Notes under the pieces: generated by a model
The model's database searches: none
Told to the model about the DNA's origin: nothing
Seen by the model: the letters and a program-made list of their open reading frames with translations, nothing else
Shown: one piece after another, positions 20,527-58,989 of the stretch
Layout of the letters: every line of letters begins with the position of its first letter
Position numbering within the stretch: position 1 is the first letter of the stretch
Assembly: GCA_963711045.1 (NCBI GenBank)
Contig: CAVQCM010000002.1
Span: 12,218-76,217, forward strand
Reading direction: 5' to 3'
DNA from: an uncultured bacterium
GTDB lineage: Bacteria > Babelota > Babeliae > Babelales > Babelaceae
Length of the DNA: 64,000 bases
Position numbers and translations under genes: made by a program

Positions 20527-20537
20527 GAGTTATGTAT

Positions 20538-20569: not shown

Positions 20570-20590
20570 ATAAGGCAATGGGGGTTAATA

Positions 20591-34920: not shown

Positions 34921-35020
34921 TATGTTAAAAAAAGAGCCGGGATTAAACCCGGCTCATACATTATTATTCGTTTGTTGAAGTCAAGCTGCCGAATGAGGAT
35001 AGCAGGCTTTTAGCAAATCC
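34921..35020 (-). pseudogene. 3'-terminal remnant (last ~18 codons plus terminator) of a paralog of the 38048-38746 gene
   Basis: About 85% identical by eye to 38014-38110. Encodes GFAKSLLSSFGSLTSTNE* versus GFAKSLLSSFNSLTSTNE*, and carries the matching GAGCCGGG...CCCGGCTC hairpin. Confidence 0.65.
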
Positions 35021-35469: not shown

Positions 35470-36940
35470 AAGTAAATCCTTTTAGTAAAAGTATCGTACC
35501 ATGAAGTCTACACAAATTTTGCCAAAAGTTGAATTGGCACTTACACATCTTCTTAAGCACCATGAGGTGATACCTCGAGTCGTACGTCATATAGAAAATG
35601 CAGGTGGCACTGCTTACTTAGTAGGTGGTGCCGTACGAGATCTTATCTTAGGAAGAACGGTACTTGATATCGATATCGAGGTGCATGGCCTTTCACTTGA
35701 AAAGCTCAGTGATATTTTGTCACAGGAGGGACCTGTTTCGTACGTTGGTAAATCATTTGGTATCCTTAAATTGCATGGGACAGAAACAGACTGGGCACTT
35801 CCTCGTACAGATACTTCTGGTAGAAAGCCAGTCGTACATCTTGATCCACATATGGGTATCTATGAAGCGCTCAGACGACGAGATCTTACCATGAATGCCC
35901 TGGCTATAAACCTTGCTACCTTTGAGTTTATTGATCCTTTTCATGGCCTTGATGATATTACAGCGAAAGTACTACGATCGCCGGATCTTCAGTTTTTCAC
36001 CGAAGATCCGCTGCGTTTTTATCGCGTCATGCAATTTATTGGACGCTTTGAGATGTATCCTGATGCTGCCCTTAATGAGAAATGTACTCATATGGACATT
36101 TCTACTGTTTCAATCGAACGGATAGAATATGAATTTGAGAAGCTTTTACTTAAAAGTAAGCGGCCTTCGTTAGGTATTCGATGGCTTCATGATATACATC
36201 GGCTTGCCGATATTCTTCCAGAACTGGCTCACTGTGTTACCACACTGCAGGATCCAAAATGGCACCCAGAAGGAACGGTGTATGAGCATCTTATGCAAAC
36301 GGTTGATGCTGCTGCTCAGTTAGATCTAATGACCAAAGATAAAAATCTTACGTTACGGTATGCAGCTCTTACTCATGATCTTGGTAAGGTCTCTACCACC
36401 ATTGTAAAAGACGGACATATTAAAAGTCCTGGTCATGCCCAGGCAGGAGCTATCTATGCCCAGGCATTGTTAAAACGCATTACACGCAAAGTAAAACTTA
36501 TAAAAGCTGTCGTGCTGCTAGTTAAATACCATATGGAACCCAGCGGATTTATAAAACAAAATGCAGGATTAGCTGCCTATAAACGATTAGCATTTAAGTT
36601 AGCAACATATACCTCTCTTGAGATGTTGGCTACCTTAGCATTAGTTGATCGGCGAGGGCGTAATGCAAATGGTCCAATGCCATTAACGATAACGCCATCT
36701 TTTATTGTAGAATTTCTCAATAAGGCTGAAAAAGCAGGTGCTCTGTTTGAGCCTGAAAAACAGATTTTGCAGGGTAGAGATATCATGGATCTTGTTAAAC
36801 CAGGCCCATTGATGGGTAAGCTGCTATCATTTGCTTTTGAGCATCAAATAGAAGAAGGGATTCGGGATAAAGAATCGTTAAAAAAACTGGTGGTTAAGCG
36901 ACTTAAGCAGCTGAAAAAAAGCCGAGATACATCTTGATAG
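35021..36940. repeat. segmental duplication, copy B (~1.92 kb)
   Basis: See copy A. Scattered substitutions only. 16 amino-acid differences between the two 478-aa cca products. Confidence 0.9.
35501..36937 (+). CDS. cca: CCA-adding tRNA nucleotidyltransferase with HD domain, copy 2
   Basis: Full-length 478 aa with all catalytic motifs retained. Differs from copy 1 at 16 positions (for example I27V, R53T, W221R, A276M, D400N). Confidence 0.85.
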   Translation: MKSTQILPKVELALTHLLKHHEVIPRVVRHIENAGGTAYLVGGAVRDLILGRTVLDIDIEVHGLSLEKLSDILSQEGPVSYVGKSFGILKLHGTETDWALPRTDTSGRKPVVHLDPHMGIYEALRRRDLTMNALAINLATFEFIDPFHGLDDITAKVLRSPDLQFFTEDPLRFYRVMQFIGRFEMYPDAALNEKCTHMDISTVSIERIEYEFEKLLLKSKRPSLGIRWLHDIHRLADILPELAHCVTTLQDPKWHPEGTVYEHLMQTVDAAAQLDLMTKDKNLTLRYAALTHDLGKVSTTIVKDGHIKSPGHAQAGAIYAQALLKRITRKVKLIKAVVLLVKYHMEPSGFIKQNAGLAAYKRLAFKLATYTSLEMLATLALVDRRGRNANGPMPLTITPSFIVEFLNKAEKAGALFEPEKQILQGRDIMDLVKPGPLMGKLLSFAFEHQIEEGIRDKESLKKLVVKRLKQLKKSRDTS

Positions 36941-47220: not shown

Positions 47221-48393
47221 TTAGTTCTTTGCAGTTCTCTGTAAATAGCCGTATATACCGCCAAGAAGGCCTATGGTCCAGATACCAGCTGCTTTAAGTC
47301 TTTCGCTGGGAGACGTTTCATATATGCTATAGGCACTAAAGCCTAAGGCAAAAGGATAGGCCCTTCTTAGTCTTGTACCCTTTTTATCAAACTCAGGTCC
47401 TATAAGGAAACCGCATGCTATGCCTATCAATAAATTTCTTCCAAGGTTATTCTCTGAAGATGTATAGGAAGGTGATTTTTTAGGTGACGGCTGTGGTCGT
47501 TGGGGCAACGTACGTGCCCTACGAGCAAGGGCTAGGGTTCCATTAGGCTGAAGTACTACTTGCCAATCCTGTGGGCTTAGGTGGGCTGGTAGGTAGGCAG
47601 CATTAAGCTCTTTGTCTTCGTTAGTGGGAGGCAGATTGGGGTAAGTCTCGGAAAGGACGGGTAAACTTGCAGGGTTAGAAACCGGTACACGTTGATGGTA
47701 AGGTATATGCTCTTGATAGAGAGGTACCATGCTTCTTAGCTTGTGAAGGATTGTCAGTTCTTCACGGGAAGGTCGTCTTGCTTGATAGAGTAATTTTATG
47801 CGATCAGGTCCCCTAAGAGGATCTACCAATCGTAGAGGCTCATTACATACTTGGCAAGACCCAGACGCTGCCCATGAAAGAGCCTTATTGAGGCATACGG
47901 CATGGGAGCAGGTAAATCGTACCAGCAGTTCTGCCTCATGTTCAACCTGACAAGCGTGGCAAGCTCTATCTATCGCTTCTGGACTACGTCTTTTACTCAA
48001 TGGTACACGTTGTAAGACCCAGGAAAGGTCTTTTTGCTCCTTAGAGGTTAAGGGACGATATACGTGGTGTATTTTTTGGTAGCTTGTTCTATCTATGCGT
48101 GGATCATGCAGCCTAAAGGGTGCTCGACATAGAGGACAAGTAAGATGGTTAGTATGTCGATGATGTTCATTACAGATCTGCTCGTTTGTTGTTATTTGTT
48201 TTTTTGCGCAGTCCAGGCACATATGATGATGTTTCTTTTGATTACAATCAAGCTGAAGTACGATCGTATCCTTGGTATATTCTTCAAGGCAAATGGTGCA
48301 TTCTACCGGTTCTAAAGTATTCATTGCGAAGGAACTTGTGTATATACCTATACTCAAGGTGAACAGTATGGCTATCGTACGTAGTAGGTTCAT
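47221..48393 (-). CDS. membrane/secreted protein with two RING-finger-like zinc modules (eukaryotic-like E3 ligase candidate)
   Basis: 390 aa with an N-terminal signal/anchor. Module 1 is CTIC-x14-C-x4-HHH-x-C-x2-C-x23-CPLC. Module 2 is CHAC-x13-C-x-H-x2-C-x12-CQVC. Each is followed by R-L-(H/V)-D-P and Y..RP.(S/T). Pro-rich linker and two C-terminal hydrophobic segments. Confidence 0.7.
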   Translation of the reverse strand: MNLLRTIAILFTLSIGIYTSSFAMNTLEPVECTICLEEYTKDTIVLQLDCNQKKHHHMCLDCAKKQITTNEQICNEHHRHTNHLTCPLCRAPFRLHDPRIDRTSYQKIHHVYRPLTSKEQKDLSWVLQRVPLSKRRSPEAIDRACHACQVEHEAELLVRFTCSHAVCLNKALSWAASGSCQVCNEPLRLVDPLRGPDRIKLLYQARRPSREELTILHKLRSMVPLYQEHIPYHQRVPVSNPASLPVLSETYPNLPPTNEDKELNAAYLPAHLSPQDWQVVLQPNGTLALARRARTLPQRPQPSPKKSPSYTSSENNLGRNLLIGIACGFLIGPEFDKKGTRLRRAYPFALGFSAYSIYETSPSERLKAAGIWTIGLLGGIYGYLQRTAKN

Positions 48394-48499: not shown

Positions 48500-50197
48500 T
48501 TATGGGTGTCGCTGATCTTCTATGCGGGCGATTTGTTCAAGCAATCGATGTGCTAGGGATATGGCATGTCGTGAGGTGTTTGCATGTTCAAGAAGAATCA
48601 CTAATGTTCTTGGTTTATAGTGTTTATACTGGAATCGTGCAGCAAAGTACCCGTGGGGGAGATCTTTTTTTGAGGATGTCTTGTTTGTACACGAGCGAAC
48701 TTGGGCGGTCCCTGATTTTCCTTGGATGGTAAATCCTGAAAGCCTGTTAAGAAGCGTACCGGTTCCTTTTTTAATTACAGAAGTGAGGCATTGCTGTAAA
48801 AAAGATAGTGTTGCTGGGCGTAATTGGACGAGTTCCTTTATAACCGGTTCTTCTACTAACATTCGTGGACGTACCTTAGAGCCAGTTCCTACGGCGCAGA
48901 TCATACAGGCTAATTGAAGGGGGGTAACGAGTAAGGAGCTTTGCCCAATGACTGCTGAAAGTGTTTCTCCAGGCCACCACGGCTCATTGCGTGCTTTTTG
49001 TTTCCATGAGCTGGTGGGCACCAGCCCTTTTTGTTCCGGAAAAAAGATGCCAGTTTTTACGCCAAGTCCTAATGCATGGGCATACTCAGCGAGGGTATCA
49101 ATGGGCATTTTTGTGCCAATATCATAAAAAGGAACATTGCAGGACTGAGCAAATGCTTTCTTGGTGTTAATGATGCCATGGCCCCATCGTCTATTGCAAT
49201 GATAGTTTCGGCCCTTAAAGTTCAGTGCTCCTTTACAGCGCCACTCGGTATCTGGGGTAATCATAGACGTCTCTAATGCCGCAGCAAGGGTCACCAGTTT
49301 AAATAAGGAAGCAGGAGGATAACAGGCGCTAAATGCTCGATTGATAAATCCATTATTTTGCTGGAGCAAGCGCCATTGTTCATGAGTTAATGGTTGCAAA
49401 AATATCCCTGGCGAAAAGCATGGTCGAGAGAGAACTACTTCAAGGGCTCCGTCATCATCCATAAGGAGGAGGCATCCTTCATATTCCTTAGGAAAGAGCT
49501 TTTCTGCAATTTGTTGAAGCTGAAGGTCAAGAGTTGTTTTAATAGTAGTGCCCATAGTCGGGCGTGTCACCTTATGCGTTGTTAATTTTCTGCCGAGTGA
49601 ATTGATAATCTTAATGATGGTACCTGCTTGTCCGGTAAGTTTTTTATTATAGAGGCGCTCAAGACCCATTTTACCGAGAGCATCTTTCATACCAAGGTAA
49701 CCCACAATATGGCTGGCAAGAGTATCATGAGGGTAGTACCGTTCATAAGTTGTATGTATGAGAAGATTCTTATTATGAGGTAGCTGTTCAACAAGTTTGG
49801 TAAGTTGTTCATAGGGCATATCGTCGCTCAGAAGGAGCTGTTTACCAGTTCGCTCAATCTGGGCAATATGGATAAGAACGTCTGGTTCTAAAGAAAAGAT
49901 AAGAGATAATCGGGTAAGGATAGCTTCTTGCTGAGTACTAAGATGATAATTGCCTGTGCCTTGCCAGTACAAGCTATATACTGGTCGATTAGTAGCAAGA
50001 AGCTTGTTATATTGGTCGGTGATATTTCCTCGTGGAGATTCTACCTGTTCTTGCCTGAAAAAGTTTCTCCTGCTCAATTGAGAAAAAAGGGTGCTTTGCG
50101 CTATTTGTAGATTAAAGAGGTACCCACCAAGGGTACAAAACGCTACAAGTACCACAGCTAGAAGATGGATCAGCCGTTTGCTAATAGGGAAATGCAT
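48500..50197 (-). CDS. mrdA: penicillin-binding protein 2 (class B transpeptidase)
   Basis: 565 aa with an N-terminal TM. SxxK (ASLFK), SxN (QSCN) and KSG(T) (GKSGTAQ) motifs in the correct order. Confidence 0.85.
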   Translation of the reverse strand: MHFPISKRLIHLLAVVLVAFCTLGGYLFNLQIAQSTLFSQLSRRNFFRQEQVESPRGNITDQYNKLLATNRPVYSLYWQGTGNYHLSTQQEAILTRLSLIFSLEPDVLIHIAQIERTGKQLLLSDDMPYEQLTKLVEQLPHNKNLLIHTTYERYYPHDTLASHIVGYLGMKDALGKMGLERLYNKKLTGQAGTIIKIINSLGRKLTTHKVTRPTMGTTIKTTLDLQLQQIAEKLFPKEYEGCLLLMDDDGALEVVLSRPCFSPGIFLQPLTHEQWRLLQQNNGFINRAFSACYPPASLFKLVTLAAALETSMITPDTEWRCKGALNFKGRNYHCNRRWGHGIINTKKAFAQSCNVPFYDIGTKMPIDTLAEYAHALGLGVKTGIFFPEQKGLVPTSSWKQKARNEPWWPGETLSAVIGQSSLLVTPLQLACMICAVGTGSKVRPRMLVEEPVIKELVQLRPATLSFLQQCLTSVIKKGTGTLLNRLSGFTIQGKSGTAQVRSCTNKTSSKKDLPHGYFAARFQYKHYKPRTLVILLEHANTSRHAISLAHRLLEQIARIEDQRHP

Positions 50198-50204
50198 GCC
50201 AGTC

Positions 50205-52925
50205 CTATTTAAGGTTATATTCTTGACAACGTCTATTTACAGAAGATCTATTAACCCCAAGGAGTGTGGCTATTTTTGATTGATTCTTAAATTTAGCCCA
50301 CAATAATCCCATAATTTGAGGATCTTTAAGGGCTTTTTTACCCATACGAACTGCTTGGGCAATATCAGGATCACTTACATTATAGGCAACATCAAATTTT
50401 GTCACTTCAGAAATCTTATGTTTAGAAGATTTCTGCACGAGAAGTTGGTGAACCCGCTCTTTAAACTCATGCAAACTAAAGGGTCGCTCATCATAGAGTT
50501 TCGTTTTATCTTTATCAGTTAGTGAAAGAAGATTTTTATAGGTATCTTCAGTAATGATCTGATCAGCATATCCTTGTGCAAGAGTGGTGACTTCCTTTTC
50601 TGAAAGATCTTGCAGTGAGGGCATTACGAGGGATGTTTGCTCTAACTCGTTATACAGCTCTTTTGAGAATTTGTCTTCATTAATGAGTTGCAGAAGATTT
50701 CTTCTTGTAGAGCAGATGATGCGTACGTTACTAAAGACCTTATGGTCACTCTTGAGGCGATGAAAGAACCCGAAGGAAATAAATTCAGCAAGATATTCTT
50801 GCGTTTCTCTACTGAGATTTTCAACATTTTGAATAAAAAGGGTCCCCACATTATCAAGCTTCTCAAGAAGAGGAAGCGCCGCATCTTTTTGTATAAGAGG
50901 ATTAAGACCAAAGAGGGTTACTGCTACTTCATCAGTTTTTTCTGGTGACGTCAGCTTAATAGTATGCAGTGATTGTCGCAAGCTAATGTCATGAAGTACT
51001 TCAACGGTGGGCATGAGGTCATTATCTGGTATATTAATAAGCGTTGCTTTTTTGGTTAGCGCCGTTCTGAGAAGATTAATTTTAAAGTTAAGCAATTTTT
51101 CACTATCTCCTGGAATCATTTGATTAATGAGACGTCCAGATTGTGTTGTTTCAAGGTAGAGCATATAGTCCCAATCTGAAGGGTCTTTAAGTTGCTCAAA
51201 ATGCGTTTTAATGACATCCGATACTTCAGGATAATGCACAAGAAGAATGGTAGAACGTTCTTCTAGGCTTGGTATACCAGTGATAATAAGTTTATTGCCT
51301 TCTGTATCATGAGCAAAGTTAGTTTGTGAGGTCTTATATTCTTGCACGCGGCGTGCCACTTTTCTCATTGCTTGAGTGAGCGGATGCCCTTCATTCATAT
51401 TAGGATCCATGCCGATCAAGATTTGTGCGGCTTCATTTGCAATAGTGAAGCGTCGGTATTTATAAAAGAGGATACCTACTTTTCGTTCTTTTGATCGCAT
51501 GAACGAGCGAATACTTTCCTTGTATTGGTTAATTTCTTGATGTTTGTTATAGAGTTCTTCAGTGAGTTGCTTATGCCGCTGATGGAGTGCTTCAAGGTTT
51601 GAATATTTAAGAATATTAATGACATTACTCAGGTAGGTAGTAAACACGAGCATTTCATCACGCTCTTTATTGGTGTAGAGGCTGCTTGGTCGGGCGTCTT
51701 TTTCTACAATGATATAGGCTGATATATCATTTCGCTCAAAAATTGGTACAAAGATATCAGCATTGATGTGATCAAGAAATCGTAGTGCTTCTCCACTTAA
51801 GACGTCCTCTTCATAAAAGTATGAGAAATGAATATCATCTCTAATAAAGAGTTTCATTTCCCGCAGAGATCGTGTTAAGGTTTCATTTTCATGCTTACCG
51901 ATATACTGTTCAACTTTAGCGGTCGTATTTGCGATGTCATAGTAGCTGTGATCTTCTTGGTCAGTTTCTGCTTTACGTACGTAGAGGCGAACTCTTCCAA
52001 TAGGAATATGAAATGCTGTGTTAAAGAATTGCTGGGTATGCTGAGCAAGTTCTTTAAGGGCCGTTGCATAGCTTAATTGCTCTAAGATGTCTCTAAACTG
52101 GGAGAGAAAATTGAACTTTTCTTTTGAGCTAACAGTCTTCCGAATATTAAGAAAGCGCAACCCCATAATTTTTAGGGCAATAAAGTATAAGATACTCGTA
52201 GAAGCTACTGTTCCTAAAGCACCTATGAGTGCTCGGTAGGTTTTAAAGTAGGAAATTACTTTTGCAAGTGAGTTAACTGAAATACTCATTAACTCGGTGC
52301 TAAAGACAAAGAAAATAAAGAAAATAAGGTACCATGATTGGTGAACAAGAATGCGTGGTACTTTTTCTTTTCTGAAACGGAGCACAATAACCATCATGGT
52401 GGAAATAGTCAAAAATATTACATAGTATCTAATGACCGAGACTAAGAAGGATTCAAAGGGAAGTGTGCCAGAACTTTCTGAAGAAATATCATATTTAAAT
52501 ATGGCCAAGTAGAGAAAACTAAGAGAAATCGCGATATTAACAAATCCATGAAGTATTGTTGTAGGCGTAAGCATTATACGTTTTGTATAAAAGTATTCTA
52601 AGCTTGCAATTAATGCTTGAAACTGAGTGAGATAAAAAATCCAGGTGATTCTATGAAATATGGTAAAAGCAACAAACTCCTCTCTGCGCTTTAGTATCCC
52701 CCATAAAATAAGTTCAAGAACATGTTGTACGTCGATAAGCAAGGTAGAAACTAGATAAATAGAGAGCAGAATAAATGCTTTTCTTGATCGCTTAGAGGTA
52801 ATAATGAAATGTACACATATGCCAAAAAAGAAGAGCTTAACAAGTATGCAGGTAATATGTATCAAGGAGATTACATAGTAGTTCCTGGCTGCTAAATGAA
52901 GGACGTTGCTAACTTCTTCTATCAT
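50205..52925 (-). CDS. membrane-anchored GAF/PAS-like regulator with degenerate sigma-54-activator AAA+ module and Fis-type HTH (paralog A)
   Basis: 906 aa with about 7 hydrophobic segments in the first 250 aa. C-terminal HTH_8-like IATLLGVNRSSVNRRCQEYNL. The central region aligns by eye to the Sigma54_activat domain (TLFGLN / GTLFIQNVENLS / VRIICSTRRNL / KELYNEL) but lacks GxxGxGK, the DE pair and GAFTGA. Confidence 0.7.
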   Translation of the reverse strand: MIEEVSNVLHLAARNYYVISLIHITCILVKLFFFGICVHFIITSKRSRKAFILLSIYLVSTLLIDVQHVLELILWGILKRREEFVAFTIFHRITWIFYLTQFQALIASLEYFYTKRIMLTPTTILHGFVNIAISLSFLYLAIFKYDISSESSGTLPFESFLVSVIRYYVIFLTISTMMVIVLRFRKEKVPRILVHQSWYLIFFIFFVFSTELMSISVNSLAKVISYFKTYRALIGALGTVASTSILYFIALKIMGLRFLNIRKTVSSKEKFNFLSQFRDILEQLSYATALKELAQHTQQFFNTAFHIPIGRVRLYVRKAETDQEDHSYYDIANTTAKVEQYIGKHENETLTRSLREMKLFIRDDIHFSYFYEEDVLSGEALRFLDHINADIFVPIFERNDISAYIIVEKDARPSSLYTNKERDEMLVFTTYLSNVINILKYSNLEALHQRHKQLTEELYNKHQEINQYKESIRSFMRSKERKVGILFYKYRRFTIANEAAQILIGMDPNMNEGHPLTQAMRKVARRVQEYKTSQTNFAHDTEGNKLIITGIPSLEERSTILLVHYPEVSDVIKTHFEQLKDPSDWDYMLYLETTQSGRLINQMIPGDSEKLLNFKINLLRTALTKKATLINIPDNDLMPTVEVLHDISLRQSLHTIKLTSPEKTDEVAVTLFGLNPLIQKDAALPLLEKLDNVGTLFIQNVENLSRETQEYLAEFISFGFFHRLKSDHKVFSNVRIICSTRRNLLQLINEDKFSKELYNELEQTSLVMPSLQDLSEKEVTTLAQGYADQIITEDTYKNLLSLTDKDKTKLYDERPFSLHEFKERVHQLLVQKSSKHKISEVTKFDVAYNVSDPDIAQAVRMGKKALKDPQIMGLLWAKFKNQSKIATLLGVNRSSVNRRCQEYNLK

Positions 52926-52929
52926 TTTG

Positions 52930-52957
52930 TTGACATCTTTTTTTTGTCTTATATACT
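52930..52957 (+). promoter_or_regulatory. candidate promoter for the small plus-strand ORF
   Basis: TTGACA, 16 nt spacer, TATACT. About 107 nt upstream of the ATG at 53065. Confidence 0.35.
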
Positions 52958-53064
52958 TTGGCTTGACAGTGAAAAGTGTAAAGCTAAGTGAAGTAATTTG
53001 TCAAATTAAATTGAAATTTGTAGTGTAGTGGTTGACAGTTTAATATACTTCTGAAGGAGTACCA

Positions 53065-53220
53065 ATGAAACATTTATTGTTAGGCTCTTGTGCTTTTATG
53101 CTTACTGTTACAATAGTGAGTACGCTTGAAGCACAAGTTTTACCACAAGACGCAAAGCCTGTCGTCCAGGAAATGCCCGATAGTGGCCCTCCCTATAATG
53201 GCTATGGTTGGGATGACTAA
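53065..53220 (+). CDS. unannotated small secreted peptide (51 aa)
   Basis: An AAGGAG Shine-Dalgarno sequence lies 5 nt before the ATG. MKHLLLGSCAFMLTVTIVSTLEA|QVLPQDAKPVVQEMPDSGPPYNGYGWDD*. A strong terminator follows 15 nt after the stop. Below the 60-aa cut-off of the ORF track. Confidence 0.55.
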   Translation: MKHLLLGSCAFMLTVTIVSTLEAQVLPQDAKPVVQEMPDSGPPYNGYGWDD

Positions 53221-53235
53221 TTTCTAACAAAGTTA

Positions 53236-53268
53236 GCGACCTATGCGAAAGCATAGGTCGCTTTTTTT
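53236..53268. terminator. intrinsic terminator (small ORF; also directly follows the stop of paralog B on the other strand)
   Basis: GCGACCTATGC-gaaa-GCATAGGTCGC followed by T7. The T-run overlaps the TAA of the 53267-55960 gene. Confidence 0.7.
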
Positions 53269-55960
53269 ATGTCAGCTTATATTCCTGACATCTTCTATTG
53301 ACCGATGATCTATTGACCCCTAAGAGTTGTGCGATTTTATTCTGGTTTTTAAAGCGATGCCATAAGAGTGCCATAAGATGAGGATCTCTCAGCGCTTTTC
53401 TGCCAAGGCGAACGGCTTGAGCAATATCTGGGTCACTGATTAAGTAGGCAGGATCGAAGGTAGTATGTTTGGATATTTGGTGTTTATAGGTCTTTTCTTT
53501 CACGAGTTGTTCAACCCGCGTTTTTAATTCATGGATACTTAAGGGAGTATCTTGTATAAGCTGTAGCGTATCTCTTTCTGATAATGACAAGAGATGCTTA
53601 AAGGTATCATTTTGTATAAGCTGATCCGCAAACCCTTGCGCGAGACAGGTGATATCTTCTTCTTGTAAGGTTGGCATAGAGATGCAAGTTGATTCAAGTT
53701 GTTGATAGAGCTCCTTACAGAAACTACCTTCTTCAACAAGGGCCGCTAGCTGCTTAGTTGTTGAGCAGATGATACGTGCTCTACTTGAGATATTCTTATC
53801 ACTTTTTAGTGGCTTGAAATACCCAAACGTGAGATAATGAGCTAACGCGCTTTGTGTTTCTGCACTTAGGTATTCAATATTTTCTATAAAGAGCGTGCCA
53901 TGCTCATCAAGCTGTTCAAGAAGCCCTTCAGATTGGTCGATAAGTTTATTAATGCCAAAAAGTGAGCGTGCAACTTCGTCAGATTGTTCTTTACCAGTAA
54001 GCTCAATGCGGTGAAGCGTTGTTCTTAAGCTAATAGCATGGAGGACATCAACGGTTGCCTGAAGGTCATCAGGTGGAAGCGTAAGAAGGAGGGTTTTTTT
54101 GCTTAATGCTGCCGATAAGAGGGAAATTTTTAAGCGCATAAGCTGTTCTGTAGTGCCGGGTATTAATGAACTAATGAGTCTTCCTGAGGTTGTTGTTTCG
54201 AGGTATAGGGCATAATCCCAGGTTGAGGGATCAGGAAGATGTTCAATATGATTTTTTACCATATCAGAAAGTTCGGGGTAATACAACAATATAATGCTTG
54301 ATGACCCATCCATATTGGGTAGGCCTGATACAACAAGTTTTTTCCCTTGCAGCTCAATAGATGTTGTTTGTGCTGTTCTAAATTCTTGTACCCGTTTTGC
54401 AACTGAGGTACACGCTTTACTTAATGGATGACCTACATGGGTATTCATATCATGAGGAATAAAATCATGTGCTGCTTCGTTAGCATAGGTAAACTTTCTA
54501 TTTTTATAATAAACGATGCCGATACGGCGACTTTCTGAAGAGCGCATATAAGAGCGAAGGACTTCTTTATATTGATTAATTTCTTGATGTTTGTGATAGA
54601 GCTCTTCGGTAAGCTCTTTTTTTTCAAGCTGAAGCGCTGCAAAACTGCTTTGCTTGACGAGACTGATAATATTACTTAAGTAGGTAGTGAAGACAATCAT
54701 TTCGTCACGCTCTTTACTCGTATAAAGGCTTCTGGGACGGGCATCTTGTTCAACAATGCAGTAGGCAATGATTGAAGATCGTTCATAGATTGGTAAAAAG
54801 ATATCTGCATGGATGCTATCTAAAAAAGCGACTATTTCATGGGCGTTACTGTTTTCTTCATAAAATGAAGTAAAGTGATAATCATCTCTAATGAGTATTT
54901 TAGCTTGATAGAGTTCATTGGTCAGTACCGATTCTTTTTCTATGAATTTTTCTATCAGATCGGCTTTTCCATTTTGTTTAAAAGAGAACATACCACTGGT
55001 GTCTTGCTTGGTGCGTAACATGAGGTGTGTCTTTCCACGAGTAATATTAAAAGCAGTGGAAAAAAATGTCTGTGTAATATGAGTGAGTTCATTTAATCCG
55101 GTGGTATAGCTGAGCTGTTCAAGAATATCTTTAAATTTTCGTAGGAAATTGAACTGTTCAGATGAGGTAATATCTTTTCTGATATTTAAAAATCGCAATT
55201 GCATGATTTTGGTACTAAGGAAGTACAAACTAATGGTCGTGAAGATCCCAATAATAACTTCAAGTGAAGGTTTAGTGAACGGAATAAAAGGAAATGATAG
55301 GTGATACTCAATACAGATGCGCATACCAAGAGAGAGCACTTGAAAAGGAATAATAAATTTGGCGAGCATGCTAATCTGCCGGTATAAGATGCGTGGCAGC
55401 CTTTGTGAACGTAGCGCATTAATAATATGCCATAAAATCCAGATACACATACAGGCGGCATAACTATAGATGAAGGTAACGATCTTCCATTCAAAGCCGA
55501 GTGTTTGACTACTATCTGAAGGGATACCATAATAGCCAATAATAAGATATAAAAAACTGCCGATACTAATGACGCCAGCGGCACCATTAAGAAGCCAAAA
55601 CCATGAAAATTTAAGGCGGCGATAGAGTAAATAGTAAAAAAAGAGGGCAAGCGACTGTATTCGTGGAAGATAAACTATCCAATTGATACGCGCAGCAAAA
55701 GTATGAATGAATAGTTCACCCTTTAGCTTTAGGCACCCACGAAGGAGACCAGCAATTAGATATTCAAGATCATTACATGCTGCTGTTACTACAAATATCA
55801 AGAGCAAAAGAAGGGGTAGTCGATCTTTTTCACGAGTAACAAGATACCAACAAAGAAAACATGCTATGATAAGCTTTGCTACCAAGGCACCAGTAAGAGC
55901 GGCAACGGCCACGACAGGATGTGATAAAATAGCTACGAGTACCGTTAAAGGGTTTTGCAT
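53267..55960 (-). CDS. membrane-anchored GAF/PAS-like regulator with degenerate sigma-54-activator AAA+ module and Fis-type HTH (paralog B)
   Basis: 897 aa, colinear with paralog A. Shared blocks: LRFLNIRK, FRDILEQLSY / FKDILEQLSY, ERDEM(L/I)VFTTYLSN, HQEINQYKE, GTLFIENIEYLS, RIICST, LLGVNRSSVNRRCQEY. Confidence 0.7.
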   Translation of the reverse strand: MQNPLTVLVAILSHPVVAVAALTGALVAKLIIACFLCWYLVTREKDRLPLLLLLIFVVTAACNDLEYLIAGLLRGCLKLKGELFIHTFAARINWIVYLPRIQSLALFFYYLLYRRLKFSWFWLLNGAAGVISIGSFLYLIIGYYGIPSDSSQTLGFEWKIVTFIYSYAACMCIWILWHIINALRSQRLPRILYRQISMLAKFIIPFQVLSLGMRICIEYHLSFPFIPFTKPSLEVIIGIFTTISLYFLSTKIMQLRFLNIRKDITSSEQFNFLRKFKDILEQLSYTTGLNELTHITQTFFSTAFNITRGKTHLMLRTKQDTSGMFSFKQNGKADLIEKFIEKESVLTNELYQAKILIRDDYHFTSFYEENSNAHEIVAFLDSIHADIFLPIYERSSIIAYCIVEQDARPRSLYTSKERDEMIVFTTYLSNIISLVKQSSFAALQLEKKELTEELYHKHQEINQYKEVLRSYMRSSESRRIGIVYYKNRKFTYANEAAHDFIPHDMNTHVGHPLSKACTSVAKRVQEFRTAQTTSIELQGKKLVVSGLPNMDGSSSIILLYYPELSDMVKNHIEHLPDPSTWDYALYLETTTSGRLISSLIPGTTEQLMRLKISLLSAALSKKTLLLTLPPDDLQATVDVLHAISLRTTLHRIELTGKEQSDEVARSLFGINKLIDQSEGLLEQLDEHGTLFIENIEYLSAETQSALAHYLTFGYFKPLKSDKNISSRARIICSTTKQLAALVEEGSFCKELYQQLESTCISMPTLQEEDITCLAQGFADQLIQNDTFKHLLSLSERDTLQLIQDTPLSIHELKTRVEQLVKEKTYKHQISKHTTFDPAYLISDPDIAQAVRLGRKALRDPHLMALLWHRFKNQNKIAQLLGVNRSSVNRRCQEYKLT

Positions 55961-56036: not shown

Positions 56037-56064
56037 AATATAGCAAAACATCTCATATTGTCAA
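56037..56064 (-). promoter_or_regulatory. candidate promoter of paralog B
   Basis: On the minus strand, TTGACA, 16 nt spacer, TATATT. About 75 nt upstream of the ATG at 55960. Confidence 0.4.
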
Positions 56065-56121: not shown

Positions 56122-56787
56122 ATGAATCAAAAAACAATACATATCTTACGATGCCTCGATCTTCTGCGGCAAGCCACAAAAGGGATGGCTCAACCTATGT
56201 CGGTGATGCTTGCTGAGGAGTTTGGGAAAGATCCTTTTGTTATACTATTTTCCTGTTTACTGAGTTTACGAGCAAAAGATACGGTGACTTATCCCGTAAG
56301 TCGCTCGCTCTTTAGTCTGGCCCGCACGCCAGAAGAGCTTCTTCGTATACCAACGAGTGATCTTGAAAAACTTTTTCATCCATTGGGGTTCTATCATAAG
56401 AAGGCACAGGTAGTAAAAGATGTAGCAAAAGAGCTTATAAAAAGATTCCACGGTAAGGTTCCTTCAACAGAAGAGCAACTGCTCAGTATAAAAGGAGTAG
56501 GGAGAAAAACGGCTAATCTTGTTCTTGGTATAGCTTTTGATAAGCCAGCAATCTGCGTTGATACTCATGTACACCGCCTAGCAAATAGGCTTGGATGGGT
56601 GTCTACGAAGACGCCAGATCAAACAGAACGTGCACTACAACAGATGGTGCCCAAAGAATATTGGATTGAACTTAACACGCTGTTAGTTATCTGGGGTCAA
56701 AATATATGTGTGCCGATATCTCCTTTCTGCTCCAAATGTGTTTTAAACCCACTCTGCCCTAAAAAGGGTGTTGCCTCCCATCGATAA
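56122..56787 (+). CDS. nth: endonuclease III
   Basis: 221 aa. HhH-GPD motif (IKGVGRKTANLVLG, catalytic K/D context) and a C-terminal 4Fe-4S cluster C-x6-C-x2-C-x5-C (CVPISPFCSKCVLNPLC). Confidence 0.9.
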   Translation: MNQKTIHILRCLDLLRQATKGMAQPMSVMLAEEFGKDPFVILFSCLLSLRAKDTVTYPVSRSLFSLARTPEELLRIPTSDLEKLFHPLGFYHKKAQVVKDVAKELIKRFHGKVPSTEEQLLSIKGVGRKTANLVLGIAFDKPAICVDTHVHRLANRLGWVSTKTPDQTERALQQMVPKEYWIELNTLLVIWGQNICVPISPFCSKCVLNPLCPKKGVASHR

Positions 56788-56907: not shown

Positions 56908-58140
56908 ATGAAACAGATAATCATTGTACTACTAATAGGTAGTTCCTTAGGAGCAATGAGACCAGCGGTACTGCGAGATATTAAGAATGCTCCACAGCGC
57001 CAGAAGTCTCAAAGCCTACGAAAAACGCTTCTTACGAGTAAATTTATCACTGCCTATAACCGGCATCAAGCAGCTGAACAAGCAGTAGCATCTCAAAAAA
57101 AGATGAAAAAAGCTCTGTATAAAGCTATTAAGCGATCAGATGTGACCGGCATCACTGAGCTGGTGAAGCAAGGCGTTGATATCACCGGCATTATCGGTGG
57201 GACTGATACCGCTCTTGTTGCTGCTATGAAGATTGATAAAGAGGAGGATCGAGTACCTTTTGTTCATTATTTACTCTGGTTTCAAGCGCCGATTGATGCA
57301 GTTGATAAGCAAGGCCTAACCGCACTTCATTATGCTGCATTAAAAGGTCATGCTGAGGCCCTTTGTGTCCTATTAGAAGCCGGTGCTACCGTAAATCTCT
57401 CAAAATACTCAGGTGAAACGGCATTAACCCTAGCTGCACTTAATGGCCATGCTACCTGTGTAGAAGCGCTGCTTGCTGCTGGTGCTGATCCAAATAAAGG
57501 TAAGCTTAACGGTCAGACGCCGCTTAGTGGTGCTGCGCTGAAGGGCCATGCTGCATGTGTACGCCTATTACTTGAAGCAGGAGCTTCACCAAATAAAGCC
57601 CATTTAGATGGGAGCACGCCGTTACATCTTGCTTGTATTACTGGCCATATTGATTGTGTAGAGCTTCTTCTTTTTTTTAATGCAGATCCGATGAGCTGTA
57701 AGAAAGATGGCCAAACGCCTCTTCATCTTGCCGCCTTACAAGGAAATGATCTCTGTTGTGAGATGCTTCTTATCTGTGGTGCTGATGTTAATGCAAAAGA
57801 TAGTAAAGGAGAAACGCCTCTTGAACTTGCTGCGCTTCAAGGTAATAAAGAAACAGTGTGTCTATTTCTTGTTAGCGGTGCTGGGGTTAATGAGAGAAAT
57901 AACCTGCATCAAACAGCGTTAAGTGCTGCTGCATTACGAGGGAATTATATCATTGCCAAGATGCTTCTTGAGCGCGGAGCTTCAGTCGATGGCAAAGATA
58001 CTAGATTTGGTAGCACGCCACTTCATTGCGCGTATCAAAAAGGGCATAAAAAACTAGCTACATTGCTGCTAAAGGCTGGCGCTAATCCTTCTGCTCTTAA
58101 TAAGGCTGGTCGCCGACCGATAGACCTTCTTAAAGAGTAG
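56908..58140 (+). CDS. ankyrin-repeat protein with N-terminal signal peptide
   Basis: 410 aa. About 9 consecutive 33-aa ANK repeats (G.T(A/P)L..AA..GH...V..LL..GA..N). Confidence 0.85.
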   Translation: MKQIIIVLLIGSSLGAMRPAVLRDIKNAPQRQKSQSLRKTLLTSKFITAYNRHQAAEQAVASQKKMKKALYKAIKRSDVTGITELVKQGVDITGIIGGTDTALVAAMKIDKEEDRVPFVHYLLWFQAPIDAVDKQGLTALHYAALKGHAEALCVLLEAGATVNLSKYSGETALTLAALNGHATCVEALLAAGADPNKGKLNGQTPLSGAALKGHAACVRLLLEAGASPNKAHLDGSTPLHLACITGHIDCVELLLFFNADPMSCKKDGQTPLHLAALQGNDLCCEMLLICGADVNAKDSKGETPLELAALQGNKETVCLFLVSGAGVNERNNLHQTALSAAALRGNYIIAKMLLERGASVDGKDTRFGSTPLHCAYQKGHKKLATLLLKAGANPSALNKAGRRPIDLLKE

Positions 58141-58578: not shown

Positions 58579-58683
58579 GTAAAAGACTTTTAATTGATTC
58601 TCTTCTTGTAAAGCTTTTCCAGAAGTTCTCATCATTTCAAAAGTTTGTGAAATACTTTTTATTCCTTTTTTATGAGGTTCTTA

Positions 58684-58989
58684 ATGAAAATATACGTAGG
58701 AAACCTTTCCCGTTCTACCACGGATGAAACGGTTAAACATGCGTTTGAACAATACGGTGATGTTTCATCAGTTCGTATTTTGTTTGATCGTGAAACTCGT
58801 CAATCACGTGGTTTTGGCTTTGTTGATATGCCAAACGATGATCAGGCTCGTCAAGCAATGGATAACTTGAACGATACTGAACTTGAAGGACGTCGTCTTC
58901 GTGTTAACGAAGCACGAGAACCAGAACGTCGCCCAGGTGGTGGTGGTAGTGGCGGTCCTCGTGGAGGTGGTTTTAGAAATCGATTCTAA
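58684..58989 (+). CDS. RRM-type RNA-binding protein with Gly/Arg tail
   Basis: Start at MKIYVGNL (RNP-2). RNP-1 is RGFGFVDM. C-terminal GGGGSGGPRGGGFRNRF. Confidence 0.85.
   Translation: MKIYVGNLSRSTTDETVKHAFEQYGDVSSVRILFDRETRQSRGFGFVDMPNDDQARQAMDNLNDTELEGRRLRVNEAREPERRPGGGGSGGPRGGGFRNRF

What the first reader, a model, noticed from the sequence alone, without database searches (positions are those of the whole stretch)
50205..55960. Tandem paralogous membrane-anchored regulators carrying an apparently dead sigma-54-activator AAA+ module
Two neighbouring minus-strand genes (906 and 897 aa) share one architecture. It runs: about 7 N-terminal hydrophobic segments, a GAF-like block (...IFVPIFERNDISAYIIVEKDARPSSLYT.KERDEMLVFTTYLSN), a coiled-coil/PAS-like block, a ~230-aa region colinear with the NtrC/PspF-type sigma-54 interaction domain, and a Fis-type HTH (LLGVNRSSVNRRCQEY).

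In both paralogs the catalytic signatures are replaced.
- The Walker A position reads (T)LINIPDNDL / LLLTLPPDDL instead of GESGTGKE.
- The ELFGHEKGAFTGA block is reduced to TLFGLN / SLFGIN, so there is no GAFTGA.
- Walker B GTLFLDEI reads GTLFIQNV / GTLFIENI.

Flanking framework residues are kept (RIICST, ELY..LE, SxHELK.RVEQ). The same losses in both diverged paralogs argue for a selected pseudo-ATPase rather than a decaying gene.

I know of no characterised family that combines a polytopic membrane anchor with an ATPase-dead, GAFTGA-less activator-like module and a DNA-binding HTH. A membrane-tethered DNA binder is itself mechanistically odd.
Basis: partly seen in the sequence, partly recalled or inferred. 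Interest (0 to 1): 0.8.

Follow-up and report, generated by a model that had tools for sequence, protein, structure and literature searches.

The report
Membrane-bound regulators with dead ATPase module
Two neighbouring genes of a Dependentiae (TM6) parasite encode seven-helix membrane receptors fused to a DNA-binding regulator whose ATPase motor has lost every catalytic motif across the whole family, and most family genes sit next to an overlooked gene for a tiny membrane peptide.

Summary
Window 50205-52925 and 53267-55960 (minus strand) encode 906- and 897-aa paralogs, 49% identical.

Each has:
- a predicted 7-helix membrane domain;
- two alpha/beta modules joined by a long helix;
- a module homologous to the sigma-54-activator AAA+ domain;
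- a Fis-type HTH.

Walker A, GAFTGA and Walker B DE are absent from all 198 full-length family members checked. In the 101-member alignment both arginine fingers are replaced too. New residues are conserved in their place, so this is a selected pseudo-ATPase.

The family is found across Dependentiae, is named only generically, and appears in no paper I could find. The complete genome of Babela massiliensis has one member but no rpoN.

The best reading is an extreme, membrane-integrated form of the known "atypical" sigma-54-independent enhancer-binding proteins (TyrR, NtrX, VpsR), acting at sigma-70 promoters.

New here: 62 of 106 family genes have a divergent micro-ORF about 95 nt upstream. 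It encodes a roughly 28-aa peptide with a basic N-terminus, one hydrophobic helix and a C-terminal PP motif. Controls gave 1 of 106 on the same strand and 0.23 per shuffle. In the window it lies at 53065-53220.

The GAF and PAS labels have no sequence support. No function has been tested.

The parts
53267..55960 (-). Regulator paralog A (897 aa, nth-proximal): 7TM domain, two alpha/beta modules, pseudo-AAA+ module, Fis-type HTH
   Evidence: ORF. Pfam PF00158/PF14532. AlphaFold2 model with pLDDT 86.7. Identical to database protein P0001.
50205..52925 (-). Regulator paralog B (906 aa, PBP2-proximal), same architecture, 49% identical to A
   Evidence: Identical to P0017.
55181..55960 (-). Paralog A, predicted 7-helix membrane domain (residues 1-260; helices 15-42, 44-76, 84-113, 120-142, 154-185, 190-218, 230-254). 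Basic loops place the N-terminus outside and the C-terminus in the cytoplasm.
   Evidence: AlphaFold2 (pTM 0.83 for the domain alone). Only generic 7TM/GPCR-like fold matches, TM-score 0.5-0.6 with E > 1e-3. No Pfam family. A profile of the domain finds 393 clusters at 50% identity; in the 150 listed, the domain is at or near the N-terminus.
52122..52925 (-). Paralog B, 7-helix membrane domain (residues 1-268)
   Evidence: Aligned with paralog A and 25 relatives.
54149..55177 (-). Paralog A, cytoplasmic sensor-like region (residues 262-604): alpha/beta module, long helix 440-475, second alpha/beta module with a PAS-like strand order
   Evidence: Secondary structure of the model. No sequence match to Pfam or PDB. 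Highly conserved within the family.
51102..52139 (-). Paralog B, equivalent sensor-like region
53462..54160 (-). Paralog A, pseudo-AAA+ module homologous to the sigma-54 interaction domain (residues 601-833)
   Evidence: Profile alignment to NtrC4, NtrC1 and PspF. Foldseek target TM-score 0.68 to PspF.
50400..51101 (-). Paralog B, pseudo-AAA+ module (about residues 609-842)
   Evidence: Pfam and NCBIfam matches over residues 682-841. Alignment to paralog A.
54050..54091 (-). Paralog A, Walker A-equivalent stretch LLLTLPPDDLQATV (no GxxxxGK[ST]; Asp632 is invariant in the family)
53918..53965 (-). Paralog A, L1-loop region SLFGINKLIDQSEGLL (GAFTGA absent, loop two residues shorter)
53876..53899 (-). 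Paralog A, Walker B-equivalent GTLFIENI (DE replaced by EN)
53696..53722 (-). Paralog A, arginine-finger region FCKELYQQL (both Arg replaced)
53270..53455 (-). Paralog A, C-terminal Fis-type helix-turn-helix (residues 836-897); the most conserved part of the protein
   Evidence: 73% mean column identity. Ten best PDB matches are Fis; a TyrR-homologue DNA-binding domain follows at E 0.22. NCBIfam Fis E 0.032.
50208..50393 (-). Paralog B, C-terminal Fis-type helix-turn-helix
53065..53220 (+). Micro-ORF, 51 aa, divergent from paralog B: MKHLLLGSCAFMLTVTIVSTLEAQ/VLPQDAKPVVQEMPDSGPPYNGYGWDD. It has a signal-peptide-like N-terminus and a PPY motif, and is preceded by GGAG. This exact sequence is not in the protein collection that was looked up.
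   Evidence: It belongs to a set of micro-ORFs found divergently upstream of 62 of 106 family genes.
53235..53262 (.). 12-bp-stem hairpin between the micro-ORF and the 3' end of paralog A. The T-run lies on the + strand, so it reads as a terminator for the micro-ORF and possibly works in both directions.
52930..52957 (+). Sigma-70-like promoter TTGACA-16-TATACT (11 of 12) pointing at the micro-ORF; its -35 box lies within 10 nt upstream of the start codon of paralog B
   Evidence: Related loci show a similar arrangement.
52975..53004 (-). Sigma-70-like promoter TTGACA-18-TACACT (10 of 12) for paralog B
56037..56064 (-). Sigma-70-like promoter TTGACA-16-TATATT with TG extension (11 of 12) for paralog A
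48500..50197 (-). PBP2-type transpeptidase gene starting 7 nt after paralog B; a conserved downstream neighbour, possibly co-transcribed here
   Evidence: Pfam. Synteny in most of 79 Dependentiae loci.
56122..56787 (+). Endonuclease III (nth) gene, divergent from paralog A; a conserved upstream neighbour of the family
   Evidence: Pfam. Synteny.

Best explanation
The two genes encode membrane-integrated, one-component transcription regulators. They descend from bacterial enhancer-binding proteins but no longer work through sigma-54.

Proposed mechanism:
- A seven-helix membrane domain has its N-terminus outside, its C-terminus inside and only short loops. It senses a signal in or at the membrane.
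- The signal passes through two cytoplasmic alpha/beta modules and a long connecting helix.
- It reaches a Fis-type HTH that binds DNA while the protein stays in the membrane, and controls sigma-70 promoters.
- The former AAA+ motor cannot bind or hydrolyse ATP by the canonical P-loop mechanism and has no sigma-54-contacting loop. It survives as a rigid scaffold for oligomerisation or signal relay, much as catalytically inactive AAA+ subunits serve in other complexes.

The family is found throughout Dependentiae. In Babela massiliensis it is one of very few signal-transducing regulators in a reduced parasite genome.

Most family genes are paired with a divergent micro-gene for a peptide of about 28 aa: basic N-terminus, one hydrophobic helix, then (D/E)-hydrophobic-P-P-x-x. 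In the window's clade the peptide is longer and looks like a cleavable secreted form. I infer that this peptide is a direct target of the regulator and/or a modulator or ligand of its membrane domain.

Shown: the architecture, the homology, the family-wide motif loss under selection, the taxonomic distribution, the synteny and the micro-ORF association.

Inferred: DNA binding, use of sigma-70, the scaffold role of the dead module, and any link between peptide and receptor.
For: Homology and fold of the central module.

Loss of catalytic motifs across the family, with conserved replacements:
- Walker A, GAFTGA and Walker B DE are absent in 198 of 198 full-length members by pattern scan.
- In the 101-member alignment both R-fingers are replaced; sensor II Arg remains in only 14 of 101.
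- Replacement residues are conserved: invariant D632, N694 in 97 of 101, N671 in 97 of 101.

Intact full-length genes with 51-53% mean column identity argue for purifying selection.

HTH. It is the best-conserved segment and is Fis-like. NCBIfam alignments to TyrR, DhaR and AtoC models run to the C-terminus.

Membrane domain. Seven confident helices with basic cytoplasmic loops.

No sigma-54 in a family-bearing genome. The COG table of the complete Babela massiliensis genome lists RpoN (COG1508) 0 and NtrC-family (COG2204) 1. The partial TM6 genome also has RpoN 0 (PMC4378268, Additional file 11). Babela carries family member P0059.

Promoters. There is no excess of -24/-12 matches in the window: 37 against 33.3 +/- 6 expected. 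Near-consensus sigma-70 promoters lie in front of both paralogs and the micro-ORF. GTATAAT sits 33-43 nt upstream of the start codon of more than 20 family genes.

Precedent. Atypical EBPs that lack GAFTGA act at sigma-70 promoters, and some do so without ATP hydrolysis.

Distribution and synteny. 179 tblastn-confirmed matching stretches were found in GTDB species genomes. Of the 79 loci kept, every title that names a phylum-level group says Dependentiae, Babeliales or TM6, apart from TPA assemblies titled 'uncultured Pseudomonadota' and generic 'bacterium' titles. The order nth <-> regulator(s) ... PBP2 recurs in most loci.

Micro-ORF.
- 48 of 106 upstream regions carry one under strict criteria, against 0 on the same strand and 0.03 per shuffle.
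- 62 of 106 carry one under relaxed criteria, against 1 and 0.23.
- 48 have a Shine-Dalgarno-like sequence. The start-to-start distance has a median of 95 nt. PP is usually followed by two residues.
- Many lie upstream of second or stand-alone copies with no nth gene downstream.
Against: - Nothing functional was tested: not DNA binding, promoter targets, oligomeric state or nucleotide binding. A non-canonical nucleotide or ligand site in the remodelled pocket cannot be excluded.
- Absence of rpoN is documented only for Babela and one partial TM6 genome. It was not checked for the genome this window comes from, of which only 64 kb is available.
- No conserved palindromic operator was found in the upstream regions.
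- HTH matches are statistically marginal (E about 0.01).
- GAF and PAS identities are unsupported.
- The micro-ORF is missing upstream of 44 of 106 family genes, including paralog A here. Where nth follows it, it could instead be a leader ORF of nth. Its PP motif could reflect ribosome stalling rather than receptor binding.
Confidence: 0.65

Rival explanations
1. They are ordinary sigma-54-dependent enhancer-binding proteins, as the public annotation 'sigma 54-interacting transcriptional regulator' implies. They would hydrolyse ATP to open sigma-54 promoters.
For: Pfam PF00158 is matched above threshold. NCBI names relatives this way.
Against: All elements needed for that mechanism are missing in every member examined: the P-loop, Walker B DE, both R-fingers and the GAFTGA loop. 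RpoN is absent from Babela, which carries a member. The window shows no -24/-12 enrichment.
Confidence: 0.02
2. They are decaying genes: relics of enhancer-binding proteins left over after sigma-54 was lost.
For: The catalytic motifs are gone, and the host lineage has reduced genomes.
Against: There are 198 intact ORFs of about 900 aa across a phylum. Mean column identity is 51-53%, and there are dozens of invariant positions, including residues that replaced the motifs. Tandem duplicates have been retained repeatedly. Synteny is conserved.
Confidence: 0.01
3. The protein is chiefly a membrane sensor or scaffold that acts through protein partners or a small ligand bound in the remodelled AAA+ pocket, as c-di-GMP binds FleQ and VpsR. 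DNA binding would be secondary or absent.
For: FleQ and VpsR show that EBP AAA+ domains can be ligand sensors. The conserved acidic stretch with invariant Asp in place of the P-loop suggests a new function for the pocket.
Against: The HTH is the most conserved segment. Babela has no GGDEF proteins or class 3 adenylate cyclase, so a self-made cyclic nucleotide ligand is unlikely.
Confidence: 0.1
4. The regulator works by regulated proteolysis: a signal triggers cleavage, and the soluble pseudo-AAA+/HTH fragment is released to bind DNA. This is a variant of the best explanation, not an exclusive alternative.
For: There is precedent in membrane-tethered regulators (my own knowledge). RseP-type proteases (COG0750) are present in two copies in Babela. 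FtsH is encoded nearby in many loci.
Against: There is no direct evidence. ToxR and CadC-type proteins work without release. No conserved cleavage motif was identified.
Confidence: 0.12
5. The micro-ORFs are unrelated to the regulators' function. They could be leader ORFs of nth, type I toxin-like hydrophobic peptides, or translation-arrest (PP-stalling) sensors of membrane insertion.
For: In nth-adjacent loci the micro-ORF lies on the nth strand just upstream of nth. Small hydrophobic peptides and PP stalling motifs have other known roles (my own knowledge).
Against: The micro-ORF follows the regulator rather than nth. It occurs upstream of second copies and of stand-alone copies that have no nth gene (window, L010, L027, L040, L057, L079, L080, several 2of2 copies). 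The spacing to the regulator start is tight, with a median of 95 nt. In the window it has its own terminator.
Confidence: 0.3

Closest known systems
Atypical (sigma-54-independent) enhancer-binding proteins: TyrR/PhhR, NtrX, HupR, HsfA, VpsR, Rhodobacter capsulatus NtrC, Caulobacter NtrC
   Same: They share the EBP-type AAA+ fold followed by a Fis-type HTH, lack GAFTGA, and in some cases have degenerate Walker motifs. They act at sigma-70 promoters, sometimes without ATP hydrolysis. NtrX chains give the lowest Foldseek E-values, though at lower target TM-scores than PspF. TyrR, DhaR and NtrX models are among the best NCBIfam hits.
   Different: The known members are soluble, with REC, ACT or PAS sensor domains, and the cited papers describe only some of them as having non-consensus Walker A or B motifs. 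Here every catalytic element is gone family-wide, and the sensor is a 7-helix membrane domain. All NCBIfam scores are far below the family cut-offs.
Canonical bacterial enhancer-binding proteins (NtrC1, PspF, NorR, NifA, DmpR)
   Same: The central domain is homologous across its full length and the framework residues are conserved. The modular layout of sensor, central domain and HTH is the same.
   Different: There is no ATPase site, no sigma-54 contact loop, no sigma-54 in a family-bearing genome, and the protein is membrane-anchored.
Membrane-integrated one-component regulators (ToxR, CadC, BcrR)
   Same: A single polypeptide combines transmembrane segments with a DNA-binding domain, so DNA would be bound at the membrane (my own knowledge for these examples).
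   Different: Those proteins have a winged-helix or other HTH at the N-terminus and one to four TM helices. Here the order is reversed: 7TM first, about 640 cytoplasmic residues, and the HTH last. There is no sequence relationship.
Catalytically inactive AAA+ subunits used as structural elements (e.g. the delta and delta-prime subunits of the clamp loader)
   Same: The AAA+ fold is kept under selection without a working nucleotide site (my own knowledge).
   Different: They belong to a different AAA+ clade and work in a different cellular process. Oligomeric partners are unknown here.
Regulator/small-peptide gene pairs: Rgg/SHP and ComR/ComS (a small hydrophobic peptide gene next to its regulator), AgrC/AIP (a polytopic receptor for a peptide), PhoQ/MgrB (a small membrane protein that feeds back on a sensor)
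   Same: A very short gene for a peptide with a basic N-terminus and a hydrophobic body lies divergently beside the regulator gene, with a compact shared promoter region. The comparison itself rests on my own knowledge.
   Different: There is no homology. Those regulators are cytoplasmic RRNPP proteins or histidine kinases. No evidence exists yet that the Dependentiae peptide is processed, secreted or sensed.

Membership tests
Bacterial enhancer-binding protein (sigma-54-dependent activator, Pfam PF00158) | Central domain homologous to the sigma-54 interaction AAA+ domain | tested here: met
   PF00158 E 4e-11 and 8e-13, above the gathering score. Full-length colinear profile alignment to NtrC4. 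Foldseek target TM-score up to 0.68.
Bacterial enhancer-binding protein (sigma-54-dependent activator, Pfam PF00158) | Walker A P-loop GxxxxGK[ST] | tested here: not met
   Replaced by L-(D/E)-M-P-E-(E/D)-D-L. Absent in 198 of 198 members.
Bacterial enhancer-binding protein (sigma-54-dependent activator, Pfam PF00158) | Walker B hhhhDE | tested here: not met
   Reads (Q/E/K)N, with Asn at the catalytic Glu position in 97 of 101. No DE motif in 198 members.
Bacterial enhancer-binding protein (sigma-54-dependent activator, Pfam PF00158) | GAFTGA loop (L1) that contacts sigma-54 | tested here: not met
   Reads LFG(I/L)NP with a 2-residue deletion. Absent in 198 of 198.
Bacterial enhancer-binding protein (sigma-54-dependent activator, Pfam PF00158) | Arginine fingers (PspF R162/R168 equivalents) and sensor II arginine | tested here: not met
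   The R-finger positions are Ser in 95 of 101 and Glu in 89 of 101. Sensor II is Q or H, with Arg in only 14 of 101.
Bacterial enhancer-binding protein (sigma-54-dependent activator, Pfam PF00158) | Sigma-54 (rpoN) and -24/-12 promoters in the same genome | tested here: inconclusive
   RpoN COG count is 0 in Babela massiliensis and in the TM6 genome. There is no -24/-12 excess in the window and no RpoN box in 1.39 Mb of window and locus sequence. The rest of this genome is not available.
Atypical (sigma-70-dependent) EBPs | EBP central domain without GAFTGA, plus a C-terminal Fis-type HTH | tested here: met
   The HTH match to Fis and a TyrR-homologue DNA-binding domain is marginal in E-value (0.01-0.2), but the ten best hits are all Fis.
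Atypical (sigma-70-dependent) EBPs | Binds DNA and regulates sigma-70 promoters | not testable with these tools
   Only indirect evidence: sigma-70-like promoters in the locus and RpoD as the only sigma-factor COG with a nonzero Babela count among those retrieved.
Membrane-integrated one-component regulators | Transmembrane segments and a DNA-binding domain in one polypeptide | tested here: met
   Seven predicted TM helices at pLDDT above 90, plus a C-terminal HTH. This is prediction only.
GAF domain / PAS domain sensors | Sequence or fold match to GAF or PAS | tested here: inconclusive
   No GAF hit and one PAS_8 hit (E 0.036) among 52 members. No PDB sequence match for residues 262-604. The secondary-structure order is compatible with small alpha/beta sensor folds. 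A domain-wise fold search was not possible.
Known bacterial 7TM sensor families (7TMR-DISM, 5TMR-LYT, MASE and others in Pfam) | Profile match to the family | tested here: not met
   No Pfam match at E <= 0.1 to any of these families in the 52 members scanned. Only generic 7TM fold similarity.

The most novel reading that the evidence does not exclude
The regulator and its divergent micro-gene form a previously unrecognised signalling module of the phylum Dependentiae. A tiny membrane-inserted or secreted 'PP' peptide would be sensed by, or would feed back on, a 7-helix receptor that is itself the transcription factor. Its fossilised enhancer-binding-protein motor would serve as the transmission element. 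In Babela massiliensis, and perhaps more widely in these obligate intracellular parasites, there is no sigma-54 and no OmpR- or NarL-type response regulator. The module could therefore be the main developmental or host-sensing switch.
Probability: 0.3. Interest if true: 0.85.

Novelty: new variant of a known kind. Interest (0 to 1): 0.65.

Why it matters
- It marks one end of a known evolutionary path. Enhancer-binding proteins can drift from ATP-driven sigma-54 activators to sigma-70 regulators. Here the motor is completely dead yet strictly conserved across a phylum, which asks what a nucleotide-free EBP domain does.
- It corrects a systematic mis-annotation. 'Sigma 54-interacting transcriptional regulator' is applied in genomes of a phylum whose one fully checked member has no sigma-54.
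- In Babela massiliensis this is one of very few candidate environment-sensing transcription factors: the COG table shows no OmpR/NarL response regulators, ECF sigma factors or GGDEF proteins. That makes it a prime candidate for controlling the infection cycle of Dependentiae, whose regulation is unknown.
- The associated micro-ORF family is largely unannotated. It offers a concrete, testable hypothesis about small-peptide signalling or small-protein modulation of a membrane receptor.

Tried and rejected
- Third paralog in the window: the 911-aa ORF at 6972-9707 is unrelated. It is a beta-propeller/Ig-like protein.
- Looking up the window's own contig by exact protein failed for P0001 and P0059.
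- Literature on Dependentiae combined with sigma-54, NtrC or enhancer binding returned nothing relevant. The Chromulinavorax paper and the two TM6/Babela main texts do not discuss sigma factors. Only the Babela supplementary COG table was informative.
- Conserved palindromes and k-mers upstream of family genes: no palindrome exceeded the shuffled controls. The apparent GCTGCAAA motif was just the coding 3' end of the upstream paralog. What remained were sigma-70-like -10 and -35 elements and the micro-ORF's Shine-Dalgarno sequence. A position-wise consensus aligned on the start codon was uninformative.
- A CCACTAC/GTAGTGG element 35-45 nt upstream of the micro-ORF start in the window's clade is unexplained.
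- Identifying the 7TM domain gave only generic GPCR/rhodopsin-like matches at E > 1e-3. Identifying the middle region by sequence gave nothing.
- The micro-peptides match no Pfam family.
- Rfam and tRNA scans found nothing in the locus.
- Pseudogene decay and canonical sigma-54 activation were considered and rejected on the conservation and motif data.

Full report
WHAT IS THERE

The two minus-strand ORFs named in the finding exist at exactly the stated coordinates: 50205-52925 (906 aa) and 53267-55960 (897 aa). They align over their whole length at 49% identity.

The window is about 40% G+C. It also encodes two ATP/ADP translocases, Lon, FtsH, TolQ/TolR, DsbD, an ankyrin-repeat protein and a RING-finger protein. 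That is the gene content of an intracellular energy parasite. Relatives of the two proteins that carry a source name come from Candidatus Dependentiae, Babeliales or TM6, including Babela massiliensis.

ARCHITECTURE

An AlphaFold2 model of the 897-aa protein was built on 101 relatives (mean pLDDT 86.7). It shows:
- a short N-terminal helix;
- seven long hydrophobic helices (residues 15-254);
- an alpha/beta module (about 272-437);
- a 35-residue helix (440-475);
- a second alpha/beta module (481-560);
- an alpha/beta/alpha domain with a helical lid (about 605-830);
- a C-terminal helical bundle (844-893).

The loops after helices 1, 3, 5 and 7 are rich in Arg and Lys (sequence). The N-terminus should therefore be outside and the long C-terminal part cytoplasmic. 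The outside loops are only 6-11 residues long.

The membrane domain modelled on its own is confident (pTM 0.83). It resembles solved structures only generically, as a 7TM bundle (GPCRs and sensory rhodopsin, TM-score 0.5-0.6, E > 1e-3). It matches no Pfam family.

A profile of this domain was searched against 1.84 billion representative proteins. It finds 393 clusters. In the 150 listed, the domain is at or near the N-terminus, and the proteins are either about 900 aa long or shorter (possibly fragments; not checked). I saw no sign of the domain in another architecture.

It has no sequence match to Pfam (no GAF hit and one PAS hit at E 0.036 among 52 members) or to any PDB chain. I treat those labels as unproven.

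THE DEAD MOTOR

Pfam PF00158 and PF14532 are matched above threshold by both proteins, but only by the second half of the domain. The family profile aligns the complete domain colinearly with NtrC4 (residues 133-358), NtrC1 and PspF (E 1e-19 to 1e-16). The model superposes on PspF at a target TM-score of 0.68. Homology is therefore secure.

In that alignment:
- the P-loop GESGTGKE faces L-P-E-E-D-L-L-P;
- ELFGHEKGAFTGA faces K-L-F-G-I-N-P, with two residues missing;
- LFLDE faces L-F-I-Q-N;
- FREDLYYRL faces F-S-K-A-L-F-N-E-L;
- the sensor II Arg faces Gln.

Column counts over 101 full-length relatives show that these are fixed states, not accidents:
- Asp632 is invariant in place of the P-loop.
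- Asn is present in 97 of 101 at the catalytic Glu position.
- Asn671 is present in 97 of 101 in the shortened L1 loop.
- Ser is present in 95 of 101 and Glu in 89 of 101 at the two arginine-finger positions.

Among 198 full-length members, including representatives at 50% identity, none has a Walker A, a GAFTGA or a DE Walker B pattern.

Framework residues of the fold are kept, such as GTLF, Q703, R729-I-I-C-S-T and F747. Intact 900-aa genes across a phylum, with more than 50% mean column identity, rule out decay. The coordinates of the four motif stretches in paralog A were checked by translation.

DNA-BINDING END

The last 62 residues are the most conserved part, at 73% mean column identity. 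A profile of them has Fis as its ten best PDB matches and a TyrR-homologue DNA-binding domain further down. The signature NQ..A..LG.nR..l.rk...Y aligns with NQnkIA.fLGVNRSSVNRRCkEY (E 0.01-0.2). The statistics are marginal for so short a segment. NCBIfam alignments to the TyrR, DhaR and AtoC models also run to the C-terminus.

SIGMA-54

The supplementary COG table of the complete Babela massiliensis genome lists:
- RpoN (COG1508): 0 in Babela and 0 in the TM6 genome;
- RpoD: 1 in each;
- NtrC family (COG2204): 1 in Babela.

These come from PMC4378268, Additional file 11. Babela carries family member P0059. The same table shows no GGDEF proteins, no class 3 adenylate cyclase, no OmpR or NarL response regulators and no ECF sigma factor. 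In Babela, then, this protein is one of very few signal-transducing regulators.

In the window there is no excess of -24/-12-like sites: 37 against 33.3 +/- 6 expected, and none perfect. No RpoN box occurs in the 1.39 Mb of window and locus sequence I held. Near-consensus sigma-70 promoters precede both paralogs. GTATAAT sits 33-43 nt upstream of the start codon of more than 20 family genes.

I could not check the remainder of this particular genome.

PLACE AMONG KNOWN SYSTEMS

GAFTGA-less 'atypical EBPs' are an established class. TyrR, PhhR, HupR, HsfA, NtrX, VpsR, Rhodobacter capsulatus NtrC and Caulobacter NtrC regulate sigma-70 promoters. Some have degenerate Walker motifs, and VpsR does not need ATP. 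The Dependentiae proteins fit that class in what they have lost and kept.

They differ in two respects that I could not find described anywhere. First, all ATPase elements are erased family-wide. Second, the sensor is a polytopic membrane domain, which makes the protein a membrane-integrated one-component regulator.

Membrane-bound DNA binders are familiar from ToxR, CadC and BcrR (my own knowledge).

I file the proteins as a new variant of a known kind. They fail the tests for membership of the sigma-54-dependent activators.

DISTRIBUTION, SYNTENY AND DUPLICATION

A scan of one genome per GTDB species found 179 tblastn-confirmed stretches encoding a relative. The 79 loci kept are Dependentiae, Babeliales or TM6 wherever the record title names a group, apart from some TPA assemblies titled 'uncultured Pseudomonadota'.

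In most loci the order is nth (divergent), one or two family genes, often a XerC-like gene, then a PBP2-type transpeptidase, with FtsH frequently nearby. The window has the same order. Here PBP2 starts 7 nt after paralog B, so the two may be co-transcribed.

A neighbour-joining tree of 110 family proteins shows one old duplication shared by a large group of genomes. It also shows several independent younger ones. The window's two copies group with the corresponding first and second copies of L001, L004, L005 and L007. That duplication therefore predates those species but is separate from the large one. Repeated duplication and retention suggests divergent sensing or heteromer formation. I could not test this.

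A PARTNER MICRO-GENE (NEW)

Between the two paralogs, on the opposite strand, lies a 51-codon ORF at 53065-53220. It is preceded by GGAG and followed by a 12-bp-stem hairpin with a T-run. The product is MKHLLLGSCAFMLTVTIVSTLEAQ/VLPQDAKPVVQEMPDSGPPYNGYGWDD, which looks like a signal peptide followed by a short mature peptide.

Related genomes carry one to three such ORFs in the same place and orientation. Their sequences are variable, but each has a signal-peptide-like start and a PP(Y/W) or PFPF motif near the end.

I extended the scan to all 106 non-redundant upstream regions of family genes. The test was for a divergent ORF encoding a basic N-terminus, a hydrophobic helix and 'PP' within the last 14 residues.

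| Criteria | Divergent strand | Same strand | Mean per shuffle |
|---|---|---|---|
| Strict (ATG start) | 48 of 106 | 0 | 0.03 |
| Relaxed (alternative start codons) | 62 of 106 | 1 | 0.23 |

Further properties of the 62:
- 56 of 74 loci have at least one, and 34 of 43 single-copy genes have one.
- The typical product is about 28 aa and ends (D/E)-hydrophobic-P-P-x-x.
- 48 of the 62 have a Shine-Dalgarno-like sequence.
- The distance between the two start codons has a median of 95 nt.
- The sequences diverge fast, but length, hydrophobicity and the PP position are kept.

They match no Pfam family. Of the eight I looked up by exact sequence, five, including the window's, are not in a 15-billion-protein collection; the only name any of the others carries is 'hypothetical protein'.

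In nth-adjacent loci the micro-ORF lies just upstream of nth on the same strand. That may explain the conserved nth synteny. It also occurs upstream of second and stand-alone copies without nth, so the association is with the regulator.

In the window, a TTGACA-16-TATACT promoter pointing at the micro-ORF has its -35 box within 10 nt upstream of paralog B's start codon. Related loci show a comparable face-to-face promoter arrangement.

MOST LIKELY MECHANISM

Shown:
- the architecture and the homology;
- the loss of all catalytic and sigma-54-contact motifs under selection;
- the phylum-wide distribution and the synteny;
- the micro-ORF association.

Inferred:
- The protein sits in the inner membrane as a dimer or higher oligomer.
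- Its 7TM domain senses a membrane-borne or periplasmic cue.
- The cytoplasmic modules and the nucleotide-free AAA+ scaffold relay the change to the Fis-type HTH.
- The HTH binds DNA near the membrane and activates or represses sigma-70 promoters.
- The adjacent micro-gene is a likely direct target, and its product a candidate modulator or ligand of the receptor.

Two analogies apply. One is small membrane-protein feedback, as in MgrB-PhoQ. The other is peptide-regulator pairs, as in Rgg/SHP. Both analogies rest on my own knowledge, not on a test.

Alternatives for the micro-ORF remain open: an nth leader, a type I toxin-like peptide, or a PP-stalling insertion sensor. Regulated proteolytic release of the cytoplasmic part is possible and not exclusive.

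VERDICT

The feature is real, conserved and uncharacterised.

It belongs to a known evolutionary theme (atypical EBPs and membrane-bound one-component regulators) rather than to a new category. The micro-peptide partner and the near-absence of other regulators in Babela raise its interest. The lack of any functional data, and the difficulty of working with these parasites, temper it.

Noticed in passing
window 53065-53220 (+), hairpin 53235-53262; also L001 8856-9822 and about 60 other loci: A largely unannotated family of micro-ORFs lies divergently upstream of the regulator genes. Products have a median length of about 28 aa (51 aa in the window), with a basic N-terminus, one hydrophobic helix and a C-terminal PP motif. 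62 of 106 regulator genes have one, against 1 on the same strand and 0.23 per shuffle.
   Followed up: yes
window 52926-53064; L001, L003, L006, L007, L009, L010, L080 equivalents: A conserved CCACTAC (GTAGTGG) element lies 35-45 nt upstream of the micro-ORF start in the window's clade, and is doubled in the window (CCACTACACTAC). It is not explained by promoter or ribosome-binding-site consensus and could be an operator.
   Followed up: partly
window 30864-32300 and 35501-36937 (repeat detected at 30379-30678 and 35016-35315, spacing 4637): Two 478-aa CCA-adding/poly(A)-polymerase-plus-HD genes are 97% identical. They are part of a recent segmental duplication that also copies part of the upstream DUF4097 gene.
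   Followed up: partly
window 19012-20526 and 20465-22096 (+): Two tandem TLC-type ATP/ADP translocase genes, a hallmark of energy parasitism.
   Followed up: no
window 47221-48393 (-), 56908-58140 (+), 58672-58989 (+): Eukaryote-like proteins flank the locus. One is a double RING-finger-like protein with hydrophobic N- and C-terminal segments (weak Pfam RING hit). One is a protein with repeated ankyrin motifs. One is an RRM RNA-binding protein with a Gly/Arg-rich tail. RING and RRM genes recur next to the regulator locus in related genomes (L001, L004-L007).
   Followed up: partly
L013 7538-7726 (-): One micro-ORF variant carries three tandem DDFPPMG repeats after the hydrophobic segment, like a precursor holding several copies of the PP motif.
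   Followed up: no
L002 15658-16572 and the ~0.9-1 kb gaps between regulator and PBP2 in many loci: In L002 a XerC/XerD-like integrase gene sits between the regulator genes and PBP2. Many other loci have a gap of matching size there that I did not annotate. The window has no such gap: PBP2 follows paralog B after 7 nt.
   Followed up: no
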